In this document: piece after piece, positions 11,268-17,968 of the stretch
How the letters are laid out: every line of letters begins with the position of its first letter
Numbering within the stretch: position 1 is the first letter of the stretch
Source of the DNA: an uncultured Acidobacteriaceae bacterium
GTDB taxonomy: Bacteria > Acidobacteriota > Terriglobia > Terriglobales > Acidobacteriaceae
Assembly (NCBI GenBank): GCA_963787495.1
Contig: CAWBDA010000004.1
Location: forward strand, 166,015 to 230,014
DNA: 64,000 nt
Direction: 5' to 3'
Notes under the pieces: model-generated
What the model saw: the letters and a program-made list of their open reading frames with translations, nothing else
The model's database searches: none
Told to the model about the DNA's origin: nothing
Position numbers and translations under genes: made by a program

Positions 11268-12464
11268 CTAATCTCTTTCCACGGCCATAGCCACGGCATT
11301 GCCTCCGCCCAGGCACAGCGCGGCAATTCCACGTTTCACATTGCGGCGGGTCATTTCATAGATCAGAGTGACGAGCACACGCGCGCCACTGGCTCCGATG
11401 GGGTGTCCGATGGCGACTGCGCCGCCGTTCACATTCACTTTATTGGGATCGAGGCCAAGCTCGCGCATCACGCCCAAGGCCTGCACTGAGAAAGCTTCGT
11501 TCAGTTCGTAGAGATCAACGTCGTCCTTTTCCCATCCCGTCTTTTCCCAGATGGTGCGCACCGCGCCGACCGGAGCCATCATCACCCACTTGGGCTCGAC
11601 GCCGCTGGTAGCTTGCGCCACAATTCGAACCATGGGCTGGACTCCGAGTTCTTTCGCCCGTCGCGCGCTGGTCACCACCACAGCCGCCGCTCCGTCATTT
11701 ACTCCGGGAGCATTTCCGGCGGTCACGGTGCCATCTTTCTTGAACGCGGGCTTCAGCGAACGGAGGACTTCGATCGTCGTATCTTCACGCGGGGATTCGT
11801 CTTTCTCGAAGAGGACTGGGGCTTCGCCTTTTTTCTTCGCAGGAATCTCTACCGGGACAATCTGCGACTTGAAGCGGCACTCCTTCATGGCGGCGACTGC
11901 TTTGCGGTGAGAGTGCACGGCGAATTCATCCTGCTCTTCGCGCGTGATGCCATATTTTTCAGCCACGTTCTCGCCGGTGATTCCCATGTGGTAGTCGTTG
12001 TAAATATCCCAGAGGCCGTCGTGCACCATCGAATCGATCACTTTGCCGTTGCCGAGGCGGTATCCCCCACGGGCTTGCGGGAGCAGGTAGGGAGCGTTGG
12101 TCATCGATTCCATACCGCCCGCCACGACGATTGAGCTGTTTCCGGTCTGCACTGCTTGCGCTGCGAGAGCCACTGCTTTCAATCCTGAGCCACAAACTTT
12201 GTTGATTGTCATGGCACCTGTCGCCGGCGACAATCCTCCGAAAATTGCGGCCTGCCGCGCCGGATTTTGTCCTAAGCCGGCGGGAAGGACGTTGCCCATA
12301 ATGCATTCGTCGACTTGATCGGAGCTTAATCCGGCGCGCTTCACGGCCTCGCGCACCACGATCGCGCCGAGCTGTGGGGCACTCAAGTCGGTGAGACTGC
12401 CCTGGAACTTTCCCACTGCCGTACGACAACCGGAAATGATGACAACCTCATCGAAAGCCGCCAT
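11268..12464 (-). CDS. acetyl-CoA C-acetyltransferase (thiolase II)
   Basis: [11 protein letters not shown] active-site Cys region, [12 protein letters not shown], and C-terminal [13 protein letters not shown] thiolase signature. Confidence 0.93.
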
Positions 12465-12734
12465 TGATCATGCTCCCGCGAAGATTTCGCATTGTCATTA
12501 TAGATGCAGCAGGGCGCGAAAACGATGGGCTTCTGCGGACTGGTTGCGTTGCCTTTCGACCCATCGCACACAGACAAGCGAGAGACGCGCGGCAGATCAG
12601 TGCCGTCCTTTTCTCTTTTGCGAATGCATGCGCGGAGTGTGTTTTGAACGGAGCAACATTAGAATTTTCTGTTTTGCTCTCGTCTCTCCATGACTTTGGT
12701 ACAACACCGCCCGTTCGGTGCGTGCATTTTTTTC

Positions 12735-12763
12735 TTGACTTCATTTTTCATTAACTCTATACA
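12735..12763 (+). promoter_or_regulatory. sigma70-like promoter: TTGACT, 17 nt spacer, TATACA(AT)
   Basis: Near-consensus -35 (12735-12740) and -10 (12758-12763) with a 17-nt spacer, inside a conspicuously AT-rich stretch. Confidence 0.55.
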
Positions 12764-12830
12764 ATCAATTAGTTGCAACAAATGATCGTTGCAGATTTTT
12801 CCATGAACAATGGAAGGGAGAATAGAAACA

Positions 12831-12872
12831 ATGGCAACCAAGAAAAAGGCAAAAAAGAAAAAGAAGCATTAA
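12831..12872 (+). CDS. candidate 13-codon lysine-rich micro-ORF (MATKKKAKKKKKH), or part of a small RNA
   Basis: ATG 12831 is preceded by GGAAGGGAG (12812-12820) and the stop is TAA 12870-12872. It lies between the promoter at 12735 and the terminator at 12892. No homology evidence is available. Confidence 0.25.
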   Translation: MATKKKAKKKKKH

Positions 12873-12891
12873 GAAAGTCAGTACGAAGTCG

Positions 12892-12927
12892 AAAAAGGGG
12901 GACGCCGAAAGCGTCCCCTAAGTTTTT
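12892..12927. terminator. bidirectional rho-independent terminator
   Basis: AAAAA, GGGGACGC, CGAAA, GCGTCCCC, TAAGTTTTT: an 8-bp GC stem flanked by an A-run and a T-run. Lies 32 nt after the minus-strand helicase stop and 20 nt after the micro-ORF. Confidence 0.8.
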
Positions 12928-12958
12928 GTAGAGAATTTCGGCGTCCACTGACCGTCGA

Positions 12959-15913
12959 TCAGTCCTCGGCACTCTTCGCCGGAACGCGCTTTTCCTGAGC
13001 TGGGCACAATCCTCGGAACGCGCAGAAATTACAGTGAAAGCCGGGTTCTGGTTCGAAGTCGCCTGCAGCGATGCCACGCGCCACAGCTAGCACTCGGTCC
13101 CGCGCTCTCTCCAACTGGAACTCGGAGCGCCTTGAGAAAATGGGAACGTTGCCTTGGAGATTATGAAAGACGAGTGCGTCGGCGCGGTACCCCCACTTTT
13201 CGCGCGCGGCGATGGCGTAGATCGAGAGTTGGAGACTTTCGTCGGCATCCTCCTGCGAGCGGGCTTTGCCGGTCTTGTAGTCGACGATGTGTACGCTGTC
13301 ATGGGCGGCGCGGTCGATGCGGTCGATGCGGCCTGCAACCTTCGTGCCCGCGATCTGCACGTCGAACCATTCTTCGGTGTGCAGGACCTCGGGTGCAGGA
13401 GCTGAGCGCGTGCCGGCAAGAAAATCCTGCAACTGCCCCACCCCCTGCTTCAGGTACAGTTCGCGCTGATAGTTGTCCTGGATTCCAGAGGCAGCGAGGT
13501 CGTCACGAAAGAGTTGCAGCAGCTCTTCGTCACGCTTGCTCCGGCCAAGGCGCGCGGCCTCATAGTAAGTGCGAAGCACGCGGTGCATAGCTGCGCCGTA
13601 TTGCATGGCGGCGTGGACCTGTCGGGCCAGCTTCCATTCGCGTTCGAACTTGAACTGCAAAGGACAAGTCTCGTATGTTTCGACGGCGGTGGCGCTCAAC
13701 CTCGCGTCCAGCCCCTCGATTGGGGGGAGCGCAAGCCAGGCTGCGAGCCGGGAGCCCTGGGGATAAGCCGCGTCCGCTGCCGCGGCGATTTCTATCAGTT
13801 CGGGTTGCGAAGGGAGCGCCGCACGCGCCCTGAGCCAAGGTTGCAGGGACAGGTTGCCGATGAGTTCGCGCATCAGTCCGGCCGGAGTTTTGTCGCGGCC
13901 GATTCCCTGCTTTCCGTAAATGTGCAGGGAATCCCTGGCCCGGGTCATCGCCACATAAAAAAGCCGGCGTTCCTCCTGATCGTAAAGGGTCTTGTCATCG
14001 CTAGCAGTAGCCGAATCCGGATCGCGCAACTCGCGAGGAAACTCCACCAGAGTTTCCCGGTAACTGGCGGGGAACGAACCGCTGGTGGCGCGCAGGATGA
14101 AGACGTGTGCGAACTCCAACCCTTTGACTCCGTGAGCGGTCATCAGGTGCACGGCATCCTCGTCCTCTTTCGACGTCAACGGAATCACGCCGGCGGCTTC
14201 GCGAAAGTAATTCAGGTATTCGATCCATTCGCCCAGTTCCTTGGTCTTTGTGGTCGCCTTCTCTTCCCAAGCGGCGGCAAACTTCAGAGCGGCCTGCAGG
14301 ATTGCAGATTTTAGGTCAAGCTTGAACTGCCTTGCGATCAACTGTAGAGCAGCGTGTGTCTTAGCCTGCTTCTGGTTGACCTCGTCACGGGCCCGGCGCA
14401 CAGAGTCGAGCACTGCTCGACCACCAGCGACTTCGCCGAGCACGGAGGCCAGCGGGATCACCGCTCCCTCTTTCGATTCCCTGGCAATCGCGCGGAGAGT
14501 AGTGCGAAGTTGCTCCGGATCCACATCGAATTGAGGCAAGGCGGCTACTCGAAAAAGACTGGCATCGGCTGCCAGGTCGACCACCACCGCAACGCAGGCA
14601 AACAAATCCCGCACCTCGGGTGTGTCACTGACGTCCATGTTCTCGATGGAGAAAGGAATTTCCCGCTCGGCCAGTTGCTGGACAACGCTATCGCGATGGA
14701 CGTGCGAGCGGTACAGGACGCCGAAATCTTTCCATTTGCAACGCAAACGCCGCCGCGTCTCTTCGATGATGCGGGCCACGTCGGGCGCTTCCGCATCTCT
14801 GGCGGCAAAGGAGATGGCTTCCACGGGAAAGTTAACCAGCGCCTTCCCTTCTTGCCTCCCTTCTTCTTCCCGCGCCGACTGCAGAGGAGTCCGCCTGTAG
14901 GCAAATGCATCGCCCGCGCCAAACACCGGAGGGTTCTTGTCGACTACGGCAAAGGCACACTGCAGAATAGGCGTAGTCGAACGCCGGTTCTTGCCCAGCA
15001 CGACCAGCCTGGTCTGAGGAAAATGCCGGCGGAACAAATGAAACGCGGCGCTGGACGCACCGCGAAACCGGTAGATCGCCTGATCGGGATCTCCTACCCC
15101 GAAGACGTTTGCTTCAGCCCCCGCCAGTGCGGCCAGAACCTTGATCTGCGCAAAGTTGGCGTCCTGAAATTCGTCGACCAGAATGAAGCGGGCGCGGGCG
15201 CGCTCTGCGGCTCGCAGGCTCTCGTCGGTCGTCAACAACTCGCGCGCTCGCGTGATCATGTGGCCGAATGTGCCCAGATTCTCTTCGCGCAGCCACTTCT
15301 CTGTTGTGGCGAAAACGCGGGCGATTTCCTGGCAGCGCGCGATCACTTCGGCGTCGCTCAATTGATCCTTGGACTTTGCAACCCGGGGAACCGGGGTTTC
15401 GCCGCGCTCCAGCCGCGCAACGTACTCCGCGTACTGTTCCGGCGTTACCAGTTCGTCGTGACAGCGGCTGAGGAAGCCCAGCAAATCGTTGAGAAACTGC
15501 CCCACATTTGCTGCCCGGACGTAGTGCTCGAGATGAAGCTCGTGGATTCTCTTGCGCAGATAAATCCAAAGATCCTTTTCGTCGAGCACGCCAAACTTCT
15601 TCCCTGCGCGGATCAGCAGGCCATTGCAGTAGTCGTGGAAGGTCGCGGAATGAATCGGCTTGCCCAGTAGGGTGCGGACGCGATCGCGCATCTCTCCGGC
15701 GGCGGCCACCGTGTAGGTAAGGGCCAACACTTCTTCAGGCTTTGCGTGCCCCTGCACGACAAGGTGGGCGACTCGATGAATCAAAACCGAAGTTTTCCCG
15801 GTGCCAGCTCCGGCCACCACCAGCATCGCCCCGTGAACGTGCTCGATGGCCTCGCGCTGGCGATCGTCGGGGACGAACTGGGCAGGATAGGATTGCGATT
15901 TGGAGACAGCCAT
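12959..15913 (-). CDS. UvrD/PcrA-type helicase fused to a C-terminal PD-(D/E)XK nuclease domain (AddA-like)
   Basis: Walker A AGAGTGKTS, motif II VDEFQDAN, C-terminal IVDYKTGK and the CNFCAFRGLC cysteine cluster. Confidence 0.85.
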   Translation of the reverse strand: MAVSKSQSYPAQFVPDDRQREAIEHVHGAMLVVAGAGTGKTSVLIHRVAHLVVQGHAKPEEVLALTYTVAAAGEMRDRVRTLLGKPIHSATFHDYCNGLLIRAGKKFGVLDEKDLWIYLRKRIHELHLEHYVRAANVGQFLNDLLGFLSRCHDELVTPEQYAEYVARLERGETPVPRVAKSKDQLSDAEVIARCQEIARVFATTEKWLREENLGTFGHMITRARELLTTDESLRAAERARARFILVDEFQDANFAQIKVLAALAGAEANVFGVGDPDQAIYRFRGASSAAFHLFRRHFPQTRLVVLGKNRRSTTPILQCAFAVVDKNPPVFGAGDAFAYRRTPLQSAREEEGRQEGKALVNFPVEAISFAARDAEAPDVARIIEETRRRLRCKWKDFGVLYRSHVHRDSVVQQLAEREIPFSIENMDVSDTPEVRDLFACVAVVVDLAADASLFRVAALPQFDVDPEQLRTTLRAIARESKEGAVIPLASVLGEVAGGRAVLDSVRRARDEVNQKQAKTHAALQLIARQFKLDLKSAILQAALKFAAAWEEKATTKTKELGEWIEYLNYFREAAGVIPLTSKEDEDAVHLMTAHGVKGLEFAHVFILRATSGSFPASYRETLVEFPRELRDPDSATASDDKTLYDQEERRLFYVAMTRARDSLHIYGKQGIGRDKTPAGLMRELIGNLSLQPWLRARAALPSQPELIEIAAAADAAYPQGSRLAAWLALPPIEGLDARLSATAVETYETCPLQFKFEREWKLARQVHAAMQYGAAMHRVLRTYYEAARLGRSKRDEELLQLFRDDLAASGIQDNYQRELYLKQGVGQLQDFLAGTRSAPAPEVLHTEEWFDVQIAGTKVAGRIDRIDRAAHDSVHIVDYKTGKARSQEDADESLQLSIYAIAAREKWGYRADALVFHNLQGNVPIFSRRSEFQLERARDRVLAVARGIAAGDFEPEPGFHCNFCAFRGLCPAQEKRVPAKSAED

Positions 15914-15978: not shown

Positions 15979-16698
15979 TCAGATTGGGTACAGTGCGGAG
16001 GCCACAACGGTCGTCGCCGCGATCGCGGCTGTCTCGGCGCGCAGAATGGTGTTGCCGAGCGAGGCGGAAGTCCATCCGGATTGGCAAAATGATTGCAGTT
16101 CGCCTTCGGTCCAGCCGCCCTCGGGACCAACTGCCAGAACAATCTCCGCGTCGGCTGTTTTCGGTTTCACAACGTCCCGCAGCAAGGTTTGCTCTTCCGA
16201 TTCCGCGAGCACGATCCGCAAGGCTCGCGGCCAGCTCAGCGCCTCTGCCAGCCTGACCGGCATGGCAATCTCCGGCGGCGCGGCGCGGCGCGACTGTTCC
16301 GCCGCTTGCCGGGCGATGCGTTGCCATCGCTCCGCGCGTTTCACCGACGCGGCAGCCAGATGCGGGTCTGTGCGTCGTGCGATTACCGGCACAATCCGCG
16401 CGACGCCCAGCTCTGTGCACTTCTCGATCGCCCACTCCATGCGGTCAAACTTGAAGACCGCGAGAATCAGAGTGATCTCCGTCTGGTTCGATCGGGAGAT
16501 TTCTTCGCCTAACTCAAATTCGAGGCGGCCATCGCCTACAAAGGAAATTCGCCCGCGGCGCACGACACTGCCGGCTGCAATATCGAAATCCTGCCCGACG
16601 CGGGCTCGCAGCACGCGTACCAGATGATCCGCATGCTCGCCGATCAGGGCAGCGCGATCACCCGAGACTTCGTCAGCAATAAAACGACGGCGGGTCAT
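15979..16698 (-). CDS. rsmE: 16S rRNA (uracil1498-N3)-methyltransferase
   Basis: MTRRRFIAD N-terminus, VGPEGGWTEGE and NTILRAETAAI motifs typical of RsmE. Confidence 0.9.
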   Translation of the reverse strand: MTRRRFIADEVSGDRAALIGEHADHLVRVLRARVGQDFDIAAGSVVRRGRISFVGDGRLEFELGEEISRSNQTEITLILAVFKFDRMEWAIEKCTELGVARIVPVIARRTDPHLAAASVKRAERWQRIARQAAEQSRRAAPPEIAMPVRLAEALSWPRALRIVLAESEEQTLLRDVVKPKTADAEIVLAVGPEGGWTEGELQSFCQSGWTSASLGNTILRAETAAIAATTVVASALYPI

Positions 16699-16701
16699 TT
16701 G

Positions 16702-16829
16702 TCAGTTCTCAGTTCTCAGTTCTCAGTTCTCAGGAAAGCAAAACCCGGAGGCTCGGGGCTGTCAACTTTTGGGCAGGATGACCTTCGGGAAGGCTGAGCG
16801 ACTCTACTGAGAACTGAGAACTGGGAACT
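16702..16829. repeat. inverted heptad-repeat element, CAGTTCT family
   Basis: (TCAGTTC)x4 plus TCAG at 16702-16733. CTGAGAA CTGAGAA CTGGGAA CT at 16807-16829. The arms are complementary with a 73-nt spacer. Confidence 0.95.
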
Positions 16830-16834
16830 CCTCT

Positions 16835-17968
16835 TCACCCGAACATGTCTTTCACTTTGCCCAGCAGAGACCGCATCATCGGCTGATTGTCCACCTTCGC
16901 GGTCGTCTCGAGTTCCTGCAGCAGCTCTTTCTGGCGTTTGCTCAGCTTGCTCGGAATCTGCACCCGCACTTCCACGTAGAGATCGCCCTTGCCGTGTCCA
17001 TTCAACACGGGCACTCCCTTGTTGCGGACGCGAAACGTGGTGCCGGGCTGGGTTCCATCTGGAATCTTGAGCATATGCTCGCCTTCGAGAGCAGGCACGC
17101 GAATCTCCGTGCCCATGGCCGCTTGGGTCACCGATAGCGGGACAACGCAGTGCAGGTCATTCCCTTCCCGAACAAAAAATGGGTGCTCCTTCACATGCAG
17201 CACCAGGTATAGATCGCCCGCGGGCCCTCCGAAAGGTCCGGCTTCGCCGCCTCCCGTGAACCGGATGCGCGTGCCGTCTTCCACTCCCGCCGGAATCTTA
17301 GCGTCGACCGCTCGCTGCCGCAGAAGCCGGCCTTCGCCTTTGCACTTCGGGCAGGGATCGGTGATAACGCTGCCCGTTCCCTGGCAGGAAGGGCAAGTCC
17401 GCGCAATGCTGAAAAAGCCCTGCTGATACCGCACCTGACCGCGACCGGCGCACGAACGGCAGGTTGTAGGACCTTTCCCCGGCGCGGTTCCGGAGCCCTG
17501 GCAATCCTCGCAGGCTTCATGACGGCGCACCAGGATGTGCTTCTCCACGCCGAATGCAGCCTCTTCGAACTCGATGGTTAAGTCTTCGCGCAAATCCGCG
17601 CCGCGCTGCACCCGGCTGCGGCGGCGTCCACTACCTCCCAAGACATCACCAAAGCCGAAAAACTCGCCAAAGATTTCGCCCAGGTCCTGGAAAGGCGTGC
17701 CCTCGAAGCCCCCGCCCGAACTGGCTGCACTTCCCACTCCGGCATGGCCGTAGCGGTCGTAGAGCGACCGCTTCTCGGAGTCGGCCAGTATTGCATAGGC
17801 TTCCGTAACTTCCTTGAACCGCTCTTCCGCATCCGGATTGTTCGGATTCCGATCGGGATGGTACTGCATGGCAAGCTTGCGATAAGCGCTCTTCAGCTCC
17901 TGATCGCTCACCGTACGGCTCACCGACAATACTTCGTAATAATCGCGTTTTGCGTTCGTGGCCAGAAT
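16835..17968 (-). CDS. dnaJ: molecular chaperone DnaJ (start codon non-canonical, see findings)
   Basis: J domain with HPDRN and four CxxCxGxG repeats (CEDCQGSG, CRSCAGRG, CPSCQGTG, CPKCKGEG). The conserved KRDYYEVL lies upstream of the first ATG/GTG/TTG. Confidence 0.9.
   Translation of the reverse strand: MLATNAKRDYYEVLSVSRTVSDQELKSAYRKLAMQYHPDRNPNNPDAEERFKEVTEAYAILADSEKRSLYDRYGHAGVGSAASSGGGFEGTPFQDLGEIFGEFFGFGDVLGGSGRRRSRVQRGADLREDLTIEFEEAAFGVEKHILVRRHEACEDCQGSGTAPGKGPTTCRSCAGRGQVRYQQGFFSIARTCPSCQGTGSVITDPCPKCKGEGRLLRQRAVDAKIPAGVEDGTRIRFTGGGEAGPFGGPAGDLYLVLHVKEHPFFVREGNDLHCVVPLSVTQAAMGTEIRVPALEGEHMLKIPDGTQPGTTFRVRNKGVPVLNGHGKGDLYVEVRVQIPSKLSKRQKELLQELETTAKVDNQPMMRSLLGKVKDMFG

What the first reader, a model, noticed from the sequence alone, without database searches (positions are those of the whole stretch)
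12735..12927. A self-contained mini transcription unit in an AT-rich island carries a 13-codon poly-lysine micro-ORF
This unit lies between the thiolase and helicase genes, both on the minus strand. The plus strand carries these elements in order:
- a near-consensus promoter, TTGACT-17-TATACA, at 12735-12763
- a leader of about 60 nt
- GGAAGGGAG
- ATG GCA ACC AAG AAA AAG GCA AAA AAG AAA AAG AAG CAT TAA (MATKKKAKKKKKH, 12831-12872)
- a strong bidirectional terminator at 12892-12927

The region is visibly much more AT-rich than the rest of the window. The transcript would be about 155 nt. It could be a small RNA, a very basic micro-protein, or a lysine- or ribosome-stalling leader-type sensor. 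Eleven of its 13 codons are AAA, AAG or similarly A-rich. Nothing nearby explains it.
Basis: partly seen in the sequence, partly recalled or inferred. Interest (0 to 1): 0.65.

Follow-up and report, generated by a model that had tools for sequence, protein, structure and literature searches.

The report
Conserved polylysine micro-gene of Acidobacteria
The 13-codon polylysine reading frame is a real gene with its own promoter and terminator, kept letter-perfect at the peptide level across a whole order of soil Acidobacteria and abundant in peat RNA. It is one of the shortest conserved free-standing bacterial genes seen, and its function is still unknown.

Summary
Window 12735-12927 holds, on the + strand, a promoter-like site, a ~60-nt leader, a Shine-Dalgarno box, ATG..TAA (MATKKKAKKKKKH, 12831-12872) and a bidirectional terminator, inside an AT-rich island.

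It is not chance. In 79 of 79 informative related Acidobacteriota genomes the same peptide lies at the same place, between thiolase and helicase. Across 201 loci, 70 nucleotide versions encode only 9 peptides of 12-15 aa. All length variants are in frame, every Lys codon is AAA or AAG, and the antisense frame is not conserved.

The frame with its own Shine-Dalgarno box persists in three unit types whose leaders and trailers are otherwise unalignable. Type A, the window type, has two leader hairpins and a terminator supported by compensatory changes. Metatranscriptomes carry the unit at high depth.

No match was found in Rfam, NCBIfam or PDB, and the sequence string was not found in the held papers. 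Gene callers miss it.

Best reading: a translated, trans-acting polycationic micro-protein. Its most likely partner is RNA or the ribosome, by analogy with bL37, bS22, Thx and eL41; this step is inferred, not shown. A leader-type lysine sensor is unlikely, because the unit has its own terminator and no common downstream gene. An RNA-level role (A-R-N tract) is not excluded.

The parts
12692..12703 (+). Conserved box GACTTTGGTACA, about 30 nt upstream of the -35. Its role is unknown. It may belong to this unit or to the divergent thiolase promoter.
   Evidence: At least 90% conserved in 79 relatives while neighbouring intergenic sequence varies.
12727..12740 (+). T-tract (TTTTTTTC, resembling an UP element) followed by the -35 hexamer TTGACT (12735-12740).
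   Evidence: Sequence. Nearly invariant in relatives. The same GCATTTTTTT-TTGAC arrangement heads the type C unit in L081, and type B has TTGACA.
12758..12765 (+). The -10 region: TATACA (17-nt spacer) overlapping TACAAT (19-nt spacer). The transcription start is predicted near 12770-12773 and has not been mapped.
   Evidence: Sequence and conservation. Not called by the generic promoter scan. RNA depth rises sharply from about 12776-12783.
12773..12794 (+). Leader hairpin 1: a 7-bp stem (TTGCAAC / GTTGCAG) with a variable 8-nt loop.
   Evidence: Present in the MFE fold. Four of 7 pairs show compensatory changes, such as AC..GT to GT..AC, and 94% of cells are paired. Predicted independently by RNAalifold.
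12797..12817 (+). Leader hairpin 2: core TTCCAT / ATGGAA with a 5-nt loop, ending immediately 5' of the SD.
   Evidence: Present in the MFE fold. The core pairs are kept in 51-52 of 52 sequences, with two compensatory variants, CCGTG..ACGG (L153) and CCAG..CTGG (L155).
12814..12825 (+). Invariant box AAGGGAGAATAG containing the Shine-Dalgarno core GGAG (12817-12820), 10 nt before the ATG.
   Evidence: Unique in the window. Invariant in type A units. A related AAGGGAAAATCG motif occurs in type B leaders, which add a separate GGAGG 7 nt before the ATG.
12831..12872 (+). Micro-ORF of 13 codons plus TAA, encoding MATKKKAKKKKKH. The mature form is probably ATKKKAKKKKKH, 1423.8 Da, net charge about +8.
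   Evidence: Sequence. Present in 79 of 79 informative syntenic genome loci, with only synonymous changes and in-frame indels. Across 201 loci, 70 haplotypes encode 9 peptides. Mass and charge.
12873..12896 (+). Short 3' UTR spacer ending in an A-run (12892-12896). The A-run supplies the T-run of the minus-strand terminator.
   Evidence: Sequence. Lineage-specific in sequence.
12897..12927 (.). Bidirectional intrinsic terminator: GGGGGACGC-CGAAA-GCGTCCCCT plus TTTTT (12923-12927). It ends the micro-gene on the + strand and the convergent helicase gene on the - strand.
   Evidence: Called on both strands. 94% of cells are paired, with compensatory GGGGACGC to GGGGGCGC variants.

Best explanation
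This is a free-standing gene for a micro-protein.

- Shown: a conserved promoter region drives a roughly 155-nt monocistronic + strand RNA, about 12772-12927, with two structured leader hairpins, an exposed Shine-Dalgarno box, an unstructured 13-codon ORF and an intrinsic terminator. The unit is conserved as a block and is abundant in soil and peat RNA.
- Shown by comparative sequence: selection acts on the encoded amino acids, so the ORF is translated into a 12-15-residue polylysine peptide (MATKKKAKK..KKH).
- Inferred: the peptide acts in trans as a small polycation that binds a nucleic-acid polyanion electrostatically. The most likely partner is ribosomal RNA, as a lineage-specific ribosome-associated peptide. 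It would work like the tiny basic ribosomal proteins bL37, bS22, Thx and eL41, which fill rRNA cavities.
- Inferred: the T-tract and TTGAC promoter and the strong SD serve high, constitutive output, and the alternation of AAA and AAG codons avoids slippery A-runs.

My confidence that the ORF is translated and under peptide-level selection is about 0.8. That the partner is specifically RNA or the ribosome I put at 0.3-0.4.
For: Conservation of the ORF:
- The peptide is present at the syntenic site in 79 of 79 informative genome loci, whose helicase is 73-92% identical to the window's.
- Further type A loci in metagenomes have a helicase only 45-59% identical, and some carry the identical 13-mer.
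- In the unbiased synteny set, all point differences in the ORF are third-position synonymous changes (ACC/ACG, AAA/AAG, CAT/CAC), and the few indels are multiples of 3.
- Over 201 loci, 70 nucleotide haplotypes give 9 peptides. Lengths are only 39, 42, 45 or 48 nt. Lys codons are 539 of 539 AAA or AAG. The codon-aligned antisense frame gives 70 different peptides.

Translation signals:
- ORF, SD and stop persist in three unit types (A, B, C) whose leaders and trailers are otherwise unalignable: AAGGGAG-N10-ATG, GGAGG-N7-ATG and AAGGAGG-N8-ATG.
- The ORF is predicted to be single-stranded, while the flanking helices show covariation.

Expression:
- Many metatranscriptomes hold the unit.
- In run X2, contig depth is 457-2465 over 12776-12911 against 0-12 in the flanks. 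Adapter junctions at 12783 and 12892 are oriented as expected for a + strand RNA in a dUTP library.
- Type B units are also present in RNA runs.

Other:
- A-run avoidance: the mean longest A-run is 5.4, against 6.35 +/- 0.18 in shuffles.
- For the partner there is analogy only. bS22, bL37 and eL41 are very small, highly basic, rRNA-embedded proteins that annotation long overlooked (PMC10085706).
Against: - There is no direct evidence of translation: no Ribo-seq and no proteomics.
- The metagenome set (L081-L200) was ascertained with a pattern that fixes the first nine codons and His-stop. Only the 79 synteny-derived loci are unbiased for those positions.
- Lys codons are also A-R-N triplets, so third-position freedom in them does not by itself separate a coding constraint from an Hfq-type RNA constraint.
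- Contig depth pools many strains, because the unit is far more conserved than its flanks. It may include DNA carry-over and has no strand information of its own.
- Nothing links the peptide to ribosomes. It is half the size of the smallest known ribosomal protein, is nearly homopolymeric, is not next to ribosomal genes, and has no detectable similarity to bL37, bS22 or Thx.
Confidence: 0.4

Rival explanations
1. Same translated polylysine peptide, but the partner is not the ribosome. It could bind DNA or the nucleoid as a minimal histone-H1-like AKKA module, polyphosphate, or anionic membrane lipids, acting as a genetically encoded polyamine-like counter-ion or condensate modulator.
For: All the coding evidence above applies. 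Metatranscriptome contigs share the SD box and the first five codons (window 12814-12845) and then continue as longer Lys/Ala/Pro-rich ORFs such as MATKKAAKKKPAKKA. This composition is typical of bacterial H1-like nucleoid proteins and hints at a common origin. The insertions tolerated in the peptide are only A, S, G or K, which fits a non-specific electrostatic binder.
Against: No partner is identified. The longer ORFs were seen only as 30-nt contig extensions and were not recovered as loci. A 12-mer would bind DNA weakly compared with known nucleoid proteins. Strict conservation of the Met-Ala-Thr start and the terminal His suggests a more specific site than bulk charge neutralisation.
Confidence: 0.25
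2. The RNA is the effector: a roughly 155-nt regulatory sRNA. Its A-rich (A-R-N)n tract binds the Hfq distal face and its terminator U-tail binds the proximal face, as in class II sRNAs, or the RNA acts as a sponge. Translation is incidental or only stabilises the RNA. A dual-function RNA is a milder version of this reading.
For: The leader, hairpins and terminator are as conserved as the ORF, and the helices show covariation. The fold is more stable than shuffles, z = -3.2. The ORF is nine or more consecutive A-R-N triplets followed by an intrinsic terminator. The RNA is abundant.
Against: No Rfam family matches, even at E up to 10, beyond sub-threshold minus-strand noise. An RNA model does not predict any of the following: an ATG at fixed phase; an SD at translation distance re-created in three different leaders; an invariant in-frame TAA; third-position-only variation at the non-A-R-N codons ACN, GCN and CAY; absence of AAC or AAT among 539 Lys codons; or indels only in multiples of 3.
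Confidence: 0.15
3. A cis-acting leader-type sensor. Ribosome pausing on the Lys run, caused by low Lys-tRNA or polylysine stalling, controls read-through of the terminator. Read-through would go into the downstream MerR gene in types B and C, or antisense into the helicase 3' end in type A.
For: A short ORF with 8 Lys codons is followed 24 nt later by a terminator. In 42 type B/C loci a MerR-family gene follows on the same strand.
Against: In type A the next gene is convergent. RNAalifold finds no conserved alternative (antiterminator) pairing involving the ORF or the terminator arms. The G-rich 5' arm has no complement in the purine-only ORF. In L081 a separate TTGACG-17-TAATAT promoter-like site lies between the unit's terminator and MerR. 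The identities of Thr3, Ala7 and His13 are conserved through synonymous change, which a Lys-codon counter does not need. The stop codon is too far from the hairpin (24 nt) for a terminating ribosome to melt it.
Confidence: 0.07
4. A chance ORF in an AT-rich intergenic spacer that merely holds the helicase terminator and the thiolase promoter.
For: AT-rich spacers between genes often contain promoter-like and terminator-like matches. The generic promoter scan did not call this site.
Against: The peptide is 100% conserved where the helicase is down to 49% identical. The ORF recurs in two other genomic contexts. RNA is abundant over the ORF.
Confidence: 0.01

Closest known systems
Tiny basic ribosomal proteins: bL37 (24 aa) and bS22 (33 aa) of Actinobacteria/Bacteroidota, bTHX of Thermus, eL41 of eukaryotes and archaea
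   Same: Very short, extremely basic products of their own small genes, long missed by annotation. They work by inserting into rRNA cavities (PMC10085706; abstracts). The unit here likewise looks like a strongly expressed housekeeping micro-gene, present in every genome of the clade.
   Different: The peptide is 12-15 aa, about half the size of the smallest of these, and is almost a Lys homopolymer with no Arg or hydrophobic residues. No sequence similarity is detectable (which are inconclusive at this length). No ribosome structure or mass spectrometry exists for this clade. It is not linked to ribosomal genes.
mccA, the 7-codon microcin C precursor gene (from my own knowledge, not tested here)
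   Same: A free-standing ORF of only a few codons with its own SD, followed by a terminator hairpin that yields an abundant short transcript. It shows that such short genes can be real and translated.
   Different: mccA ends in Asn and is always next to mccB-E modification and export genes. Here the C-terminus is His, and no neighbour is shared between unit types A and B/C.
Amino-acid leader peptides of attenuators (trpL, hisL, pheL, thrL)
   Same: A short ORF with a run of codons for one amino acid, followed by an intrinsic terminator.
   Different: No regulated downstream gene is common to the family, no antiterminator alternative is found, the unit has its own promoter and terminator, and the non-Lys residues are conserved at the amino-acid level.
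Class II Hfq-binding sRNAs and dual-function sRNAs (ChiX and MgrR; SgrS/SgrT, RNAIII/hld; from my own knowledge, and PMC12310071 listed)
   Same: An independent transcript of about 150 nt with structured 5' hairpins, an A-R-N-rich single-stranded tract and a Rho-independent terminator.
   Different: Coding signatures dominate (SD, ATG, phase, stop). No Rfam family matches. Hfq binding is untested.
Lys/Ala-rich histone-H1-like bacterial nucleoid proteins (Hc1 of Chlamydia, AlgP-type tails; from my own knowledge)
   Same: AKK and KKA-type composition. Metatranscriptome contigs show longer K/A/P-rich ORFs that share this gene's SD box and first codons.
   Different: Those proteins are 10-20 times longer. 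The micro-ORF ends with a conserved His-stop after 12-15 residues in every lineage sampled.

Membership tests
Any Rfam RNA family (sRNA, leader, riboswitch) | A covariance-model match at or above the family's gathering score | tested here: not met
   No hits at gathering score in the window. For 12400-13100 at E up to 10, only sub-threshold minus-strand matches of 16-20 bits against cut-offs of 41-76. Only tRNAs in six type B/C loci.
Tiny basic ribosomal proteins (bL37, bS22, bTHX, eL41) | Sequence match to the family profile or to a solved chain | tested here: inconclusive
   NCBIfam found nothing with a 20-aa extended form and a duplicated form. PDB phmmer found nothing. At 13 low-complexity residues these searches have no power, and the tools need at least 20 aa.
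Tiny basic ribosomal proteins (bL37, bS22, bTHX, eL41) | Physical presence in purified ribosomes (density in cryo-EM, mass spectrometry) | not testable with these tools
   No ribosome structure or proteomics for Terriglobia was found.
Tiny basic ribosomal proteins (bL37, bS22, bTHX, eL41) | Very small, very basic, core (present in every genome of the clade), highly expressed | tested here: met
   pI 10.85 and net charge about +8. Present in 79 of 79 informative genomes. High metatranscriptome depth. This shows it could work like these proteins. It does not show membership.
Leader-peptide transcription attenuator | ORF enriched in codons of the sensed amino acid | tested here: met
   8 of 13 codons are Lys.
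Leader-peptide transcription attenuator | Mutually exclusive terminator and antiterminator structures coupled to ribosome position | tested here: not met
   The consensus fold of 52 sequences gives only hairpin 1, hairpin 2 and the terminator. The ORF is unpaired and no alternative helix is conserved.
Leader-peptide transcription attenuator | A regulated structural gene downstream in the same transcript | tested here: not met
   In type A the next gene is convergent. In types B/C a MerR gene follows, but after a terminator and, in L081, with its own promoter-like site.
Hfq-dependent class II sRNA | (A-R-N)n tract plus an intrinsic terminator with a U-tail | tested here: met
   Nine or more A-R-N triplets lie in the ORF, and the terminator carries U5. 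The feature is shared by any Lys-rich ORF.
Hfq-dependent class II sRNA | Hfq binding and base-pairing targets; no requirement for translation | not testable with these tools
   Comparative data argue for a translation constraint instead.
Microcin C-type peptide precursor (mccA-like) | C-terminal Asn and an adjacent MccB-type adenylyltransferase with export genes | tested here: not met
   The C-terminus is His in all 201 copies. The neighbours are thiolase and helicase, or hydantoinase B and MerR, and none is shared.
Protein-coding gene (general) | Purifying selection on amino acids: synonymous changes only, in-frame indels, conserved start, SD and stop, and a non-conserved antisense frame | tested here: met

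The most novel reading that the evidence does not exclude
The mature 12-residue peptide ATKKKAKKKKKH is a stoichiometric, lineage-specific component of the Terriglobia ribosome, or of another core RNA machine. That would make it the smallest ribosomal protein known and one of the shortest conserved free-standing genes in bacteria. Its structured leader would serve as its autoregulatory site.
Probability: 0.25. Interest if true: 0.85.

Novelty: new variant of a known kind. Interest (0 to 1): 0.65.

Why it matters
Gene callers do not report ORFs this short. No gene is called at the unit in two long MAG contigs. Yet this one is more conserved than the enzymes beside it, is found in every sampled genome of an abundant soil and peat clade, and gives some of the deepest contigs over this locus in peat metatranscriptomes.

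If the peptide is a functional polycation, it pushes the lower size limit of conserved, trans-acting bacterial gene products to about 12 residues. It would also give a defined, easily synthesised molecule (1.4 kDa) to test on ribosomes, nucleoids or polyphosphate from Acidobacteria, a phylum with very little molecular biology. It also shows a simple way to find such genes: synteny, codon-phase conservation, and the same ORF recurring behind different leaders.

Tried and rejected
- Rfam at gathering score and at E up to 10: nothing.
- tRNA/tmRNA scan: nothing.
- NCBIfam and PDB with padded peptides: nothing, and uninformative at this length.
- Look-up of the window's helicase in the assembly index: not on record.
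- Full-text search for 'MATKKK' and several term combinations: no description found. PMC4833913 on leader genes is not relevant.
I used the metagenome locus L095 instead.

Readings considered and rejected:
- The 20-aa extension from ATG 12810 (MEGRIET-). The distance between that ATG and the ORF's ATG varies among relatives (20, 21, 22 and 23 nt), and its residues differ where it stays in frame.
- The 52-aa + strand ORF 12773-12931 and the minus-strand ORFs over the region. They are broken by 1-nt indels in the leader, and the codon-aligned antisense peptide differs in all 70 haplotypes.
- A second copy or repeat family. There is one copy in the window and one per locus.

Not achievable:
The contig lengths listed for the 120 best hydantoinase hits did not coincide with those of the type A contigs. 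That is only weakly informative.
- Strand-resolved reads, because all runs are held as contigs.

Full report
**1. What is in the sequence**

- TTGACT is at 12735-12740, preceded by a T-tract. A 17-nt spacer follows, then TATACA at 12758-12763, which overlaps TACAAT at 12760-12765.
- A leader of about 60 nt follows.
- The box AAGGGAGAATAG is at 12814-12825, with the Shine-Dalgarno core GGAG 10 nt before the ATG.
- The ORF is ATG GCA ACC AAG AAA AAG GCA AAA AAG AAA AAG AAG CAT TAA at 12831-12872, encoding MATKKKAKKKKKH.
- A GC-rich hairpin at 12897-12919 is flanked by AAAAA and TTTTT.

The terminator scan calls this hairpin on both strands. It therefore also ends the convergent helicase gene. 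The island is AT-rich: GC is 0.365-0.41, against about 0.6 around it.

The flanking genes are a thiolase (11268-12464, minus strand) and a UvrD-type helicase with a PD-(D/E)XK nuclease domain (12959-15913, minus strand).

Two corrections apply. Eight of the 13 codons are Lys. The promoter is not near-consensus in its -10: TATACA lacks the final T, and the generic scan did not call the site.

**2. Is it more than chance?**

The helicase protein retrieved 80 loci from species-representative genomes. All are Acidobacteriota MAGs labelled Candidatus Sulfotelmatobacter, Acidobacteriaceae and similar (class Terriglobia), and their helicases are 73-92% identical to the window's.

In 79 of them a Lys-rich mini-ORF lies just downstream of the helicase on the opposite strand. 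The 80th contig ends before that point.
- 76 copies encode exactly MATKKKAKKKKKH.
- Three differ by an in-frame loss of one Lys or an added Ala.
- The same scan found only one other Lys-rich mini-ORF in all these loci.

Within this unbiased set the ORF has 11 nucleotide versions. Every point difference is a synonymous third-position change: ACC/ACG, AAA/AAG or CAT/CAC. By my count only about 6 of the ORF's 39 sites are synonymous, so a run of purely synonymous changes is not expected without selection on the peptide. That step is inference.

The whole block from about 12692 to 12927 is 90-100% conserved, while the intergenic sequence on either side is not.

**3. The family is wider than the window's clade**

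One scan of metagenome contigs used a degenerate pattern that fixes MATKKKAKK and His-stop but leaves 6-15 free bases. These fall into three unit types.

- Type A is the window's type. It lies almost always between the thiolase (about 375 nt upstream, divergent) and the helicase. It reaches lineages whose helicase is only 45-59% identical to the window's, and some of these carry the identical 13-mer.
- Type B has a TTGACA-17-CAATAT promoter, a leader of about 135 nt and a separate GGAGG 7 nt before the ATG. A hairpin follows directly after the stop, and the terminator is different. It lies between a divergent hydantoinase B gene and a downstream MerR-family gene.
- Type C (L081) has the type B promoter but yet another leader (AAGGAGG-N8-ATG). 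It also sits upstream of MerR, which there has its own promoter-like site after the unit's terminator.

Across all 201 copies:
- 70 nucleotide haplotypes encode only nine peptides of 12-15 residues;
- ORF lengths are 39, 42, 45 or 48 nt only, and the one out-of-frame pattern match (L189) falls outside this count;
- all 539 Lys codons in distinct haplotypes are AAA or AAG, never AAC or AAT;
- the extra residues are only A, S, G or K;
- the codon-aligned antisense frame yields 70 different peptides.

The ascertainment pattern biases the first nine codons and the His-stop in L081-L200. It does not bias the free segment, the frame or the flanks.

The frame, a correctly spaced SD and a stop survive while leaders and trailers have diverged beyond alignment. 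This is the strongest argument that the ORF is translated and that the peptide, not just the RNA, is selected.

AAA and AAG are also ordered so as to avoid long A-runs. The mean longest run is 5.4, against 6.35 +/- 0.18 in shuffles (the haplotypes are not independent). This fits selection for faithful expression.

**4. RNA features**

The predicted transcript folds into hairpin 1 (12773-12794), hairpin 2 (12797-12817) and the terminator. The SD and ORF are left single-stranded. The energy is -34.5 kcal/mol, z = -3.2 against shuffles.

On 52 distinct type A sequences:
- 91.9% of cells pair;
- eight pairs show compensatory changes;
- no shuffle or slid register comes close.

RNAalifold finds the same three helices on its own. 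It finds no conserved pairing that involves the ORF, so there is no antiterminator. Type B has its own conserved post-stop hairpin and a covarying terminator.

**5. Expression**

Many soil, peat and permafrost metatranscriptomes hold the unit.

In run X2, contig depth is 457-2465 over 12776-12911 and 0-12 in the flanks. Short, deep contigs run into sequencing adapters at 12783 and 12892. With this adapter orientation, read 2 reads the + strand, which means a + strand RNA if the library is of the usual dUTP type. That is inference.

Other runs show the same local enrichment at lower depth. Type B units are likewise covered in RNA runs.

Caveats:
- contigs carry no strand of their own;
- depth pools all strains, because the unit is far more conserved than its flanks;
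- DNA carry-over cannot be excluded, and some contigs extend into the promoter at low depth.

**6. What it is not**

- No Rfam family matches.
- No tRNA or tmRNA is present.
- NCBIfam and PDB searches with padded peptides give nothing, though these searches have no power at 13 low-complexity residues.
- The string MATKKK occurs in no paper of the library, and term searches found no description.
- No gene is called at the unit in the MAG contigs L201 and L202.
- The upstream in-frame ATG at 12810 (a 20-aa form) is not conserved in phase or sequence.
- The overlapping longer ORFs on either strand are broken by leader indels or are unconserved.

**7. How it most likely works**

Shown: a conserved, self-contained, expressed unit whose ORF is under amino-acid-level purifying selection.

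Inferred: the product is probably ATKKKAKKKKKH after Met removal (1423.8 Da, net charge about +8). It acts in trans as a small polycation on a polyanionic partner.

I favour RNA or the ribosome, at about 0.3-0.4, for these reasons:
- the gene is core and single-copy per locus;
- it appears to be highly expressed;
- its T-tract plus TTGAC promoter resembles strong housekeeping promoters;
- the only well-documented class of tiny, extremely basic, long-overlooked bacterial gene products is the rRNA-embedded proteins bL37, bS22, Thx and eL41 (PMC10085706).

This is a claim that it works like those proteins, not that it belongs to their family. No defining feature of membership could be met.

The rivals:
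- A nucleoid, polyphosphate or membrane partner is nearly as plausible. The hint is metatranscriptome contigs that share this gene's SD box and first codons but continue as longer Lys/Ala/Pro-rich, H1-like ORFs.
- An RNA-level function (A-R-N tract plus U-tail, Hfq class II style), or a dual function, is not excluded. It fails to explain the start, SD, phase and stop conservation.
- A lysine or stalling attenuator is unlikely. The unit has its own terminator 24 nt after the stop, no antiterminator, no common downstream gene, and conserved non-Lys residues.

**8. Novelty and score**

The kind is known: small proteins, and tiny basic RNA-binding peptides. This family is undescribed as far as the tools can see and is unusual in degree:
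- 12-15 residues, nearly homopolymeric;
- 100% identical where a neighbouring helicase has dropped to about 50% identity;
- one of the shortest conserved free-standing bacterial genes.

I rate it a new variant of a known kind, with interest 0.65. The function remains an inference. The decisive experiments are straightforward: intact-mass MS and cryo-EM of ribosomes, start-codon versus recoded complementation, and Hfq co-IP.

Noticed in passing
window 12692-12703: The box GACTTTGGTACA, about 30 nt upstream of the -35, is at least 90% conserved in 79 relatives while the surrounding intergenic sequence varies. It could be a regulator site for the micro-gene or part of the divergent thiolase promoter.
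   Followed up: no
window 12814-12845 (metatranscriptome contigs of X2, X3, X8; also 12800-12850 in X4): RNA contigs share the SD box and the first 5-7 codons, then continue as longer Lys/Ala/Pro-rich ORFs (MATKKAAKKKPAKKA.., MATKKAVAKKPAKKA.., MATKKKAAKKTAKKKK..). Some have a different upstream leader. These may be longer relatives, or an H1-like gene from which the micro-ORF derives. None was found in the fetched loci.
   Followed up: partly
L081-L202, type B/C loci (e.g. L201 2127-2531, L081 4723 onward): In 42 loci the type B/C unit lies directly upstream of a MerR-family regulator gene on the same strand. In L081 a TTGACG-17-TAATAT promoter-like site lies between the unit's terminator and MerR. 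The adjacency is older than the split between leader types B and C.
   Followed up: partly
type A AAGGGAGAATAG (window 12814-12825); type B AAGGGAAAATCG about 25 nt before the ATG; L081 4608-4621 in the 3' UTR: A similar motif, AAGGGA(A/G)AAT(A/C)G, recurs in all three unit types but at different positions relative to the ORF. It may therefore be more than a Shine-Dalgarno element.
   Followed up: no
L089, L106, L112, L129, L165 (type A subfamilies with an Ala insertion): Where the peptide has an inserted Ala (GCC), the ORF segment GAAGGC is complementary to GCCTTC just after the stop codon. This suggests a lineage-specific ORF to 3' UTR hairpin.
   Followed up: no
L189 133-179: One copy has an A-run one base shorter, which shifts the frame so that the ORF runs on into the terminator. 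It is either an assembly error in a homopolymer or a pseudogene.
   Followed up: no
L011 and L055 (record titles): Two MAGs titled Verrucomicrobiia and Candidatus Deferrimicrobiaceae carry the same helicase (78-85% identity) and the identical micro-ORF as the Acidobacteriota MAGs. The contigs are probably mis-binned or mislabelled.
   Followed up: no
window 15979-17929: Upstream of the helicase on the minus strand lie an RsmE-type 16S rRNA methyltransferase (15979-16698) and DnaJ (16835-17929). This conserved housekeeping neighbourhood is also present in the related loci: a roughly 240-aa ORF lies beyond the helicase, and its representative includes an RsmE-like segment.
   Followed up: partly
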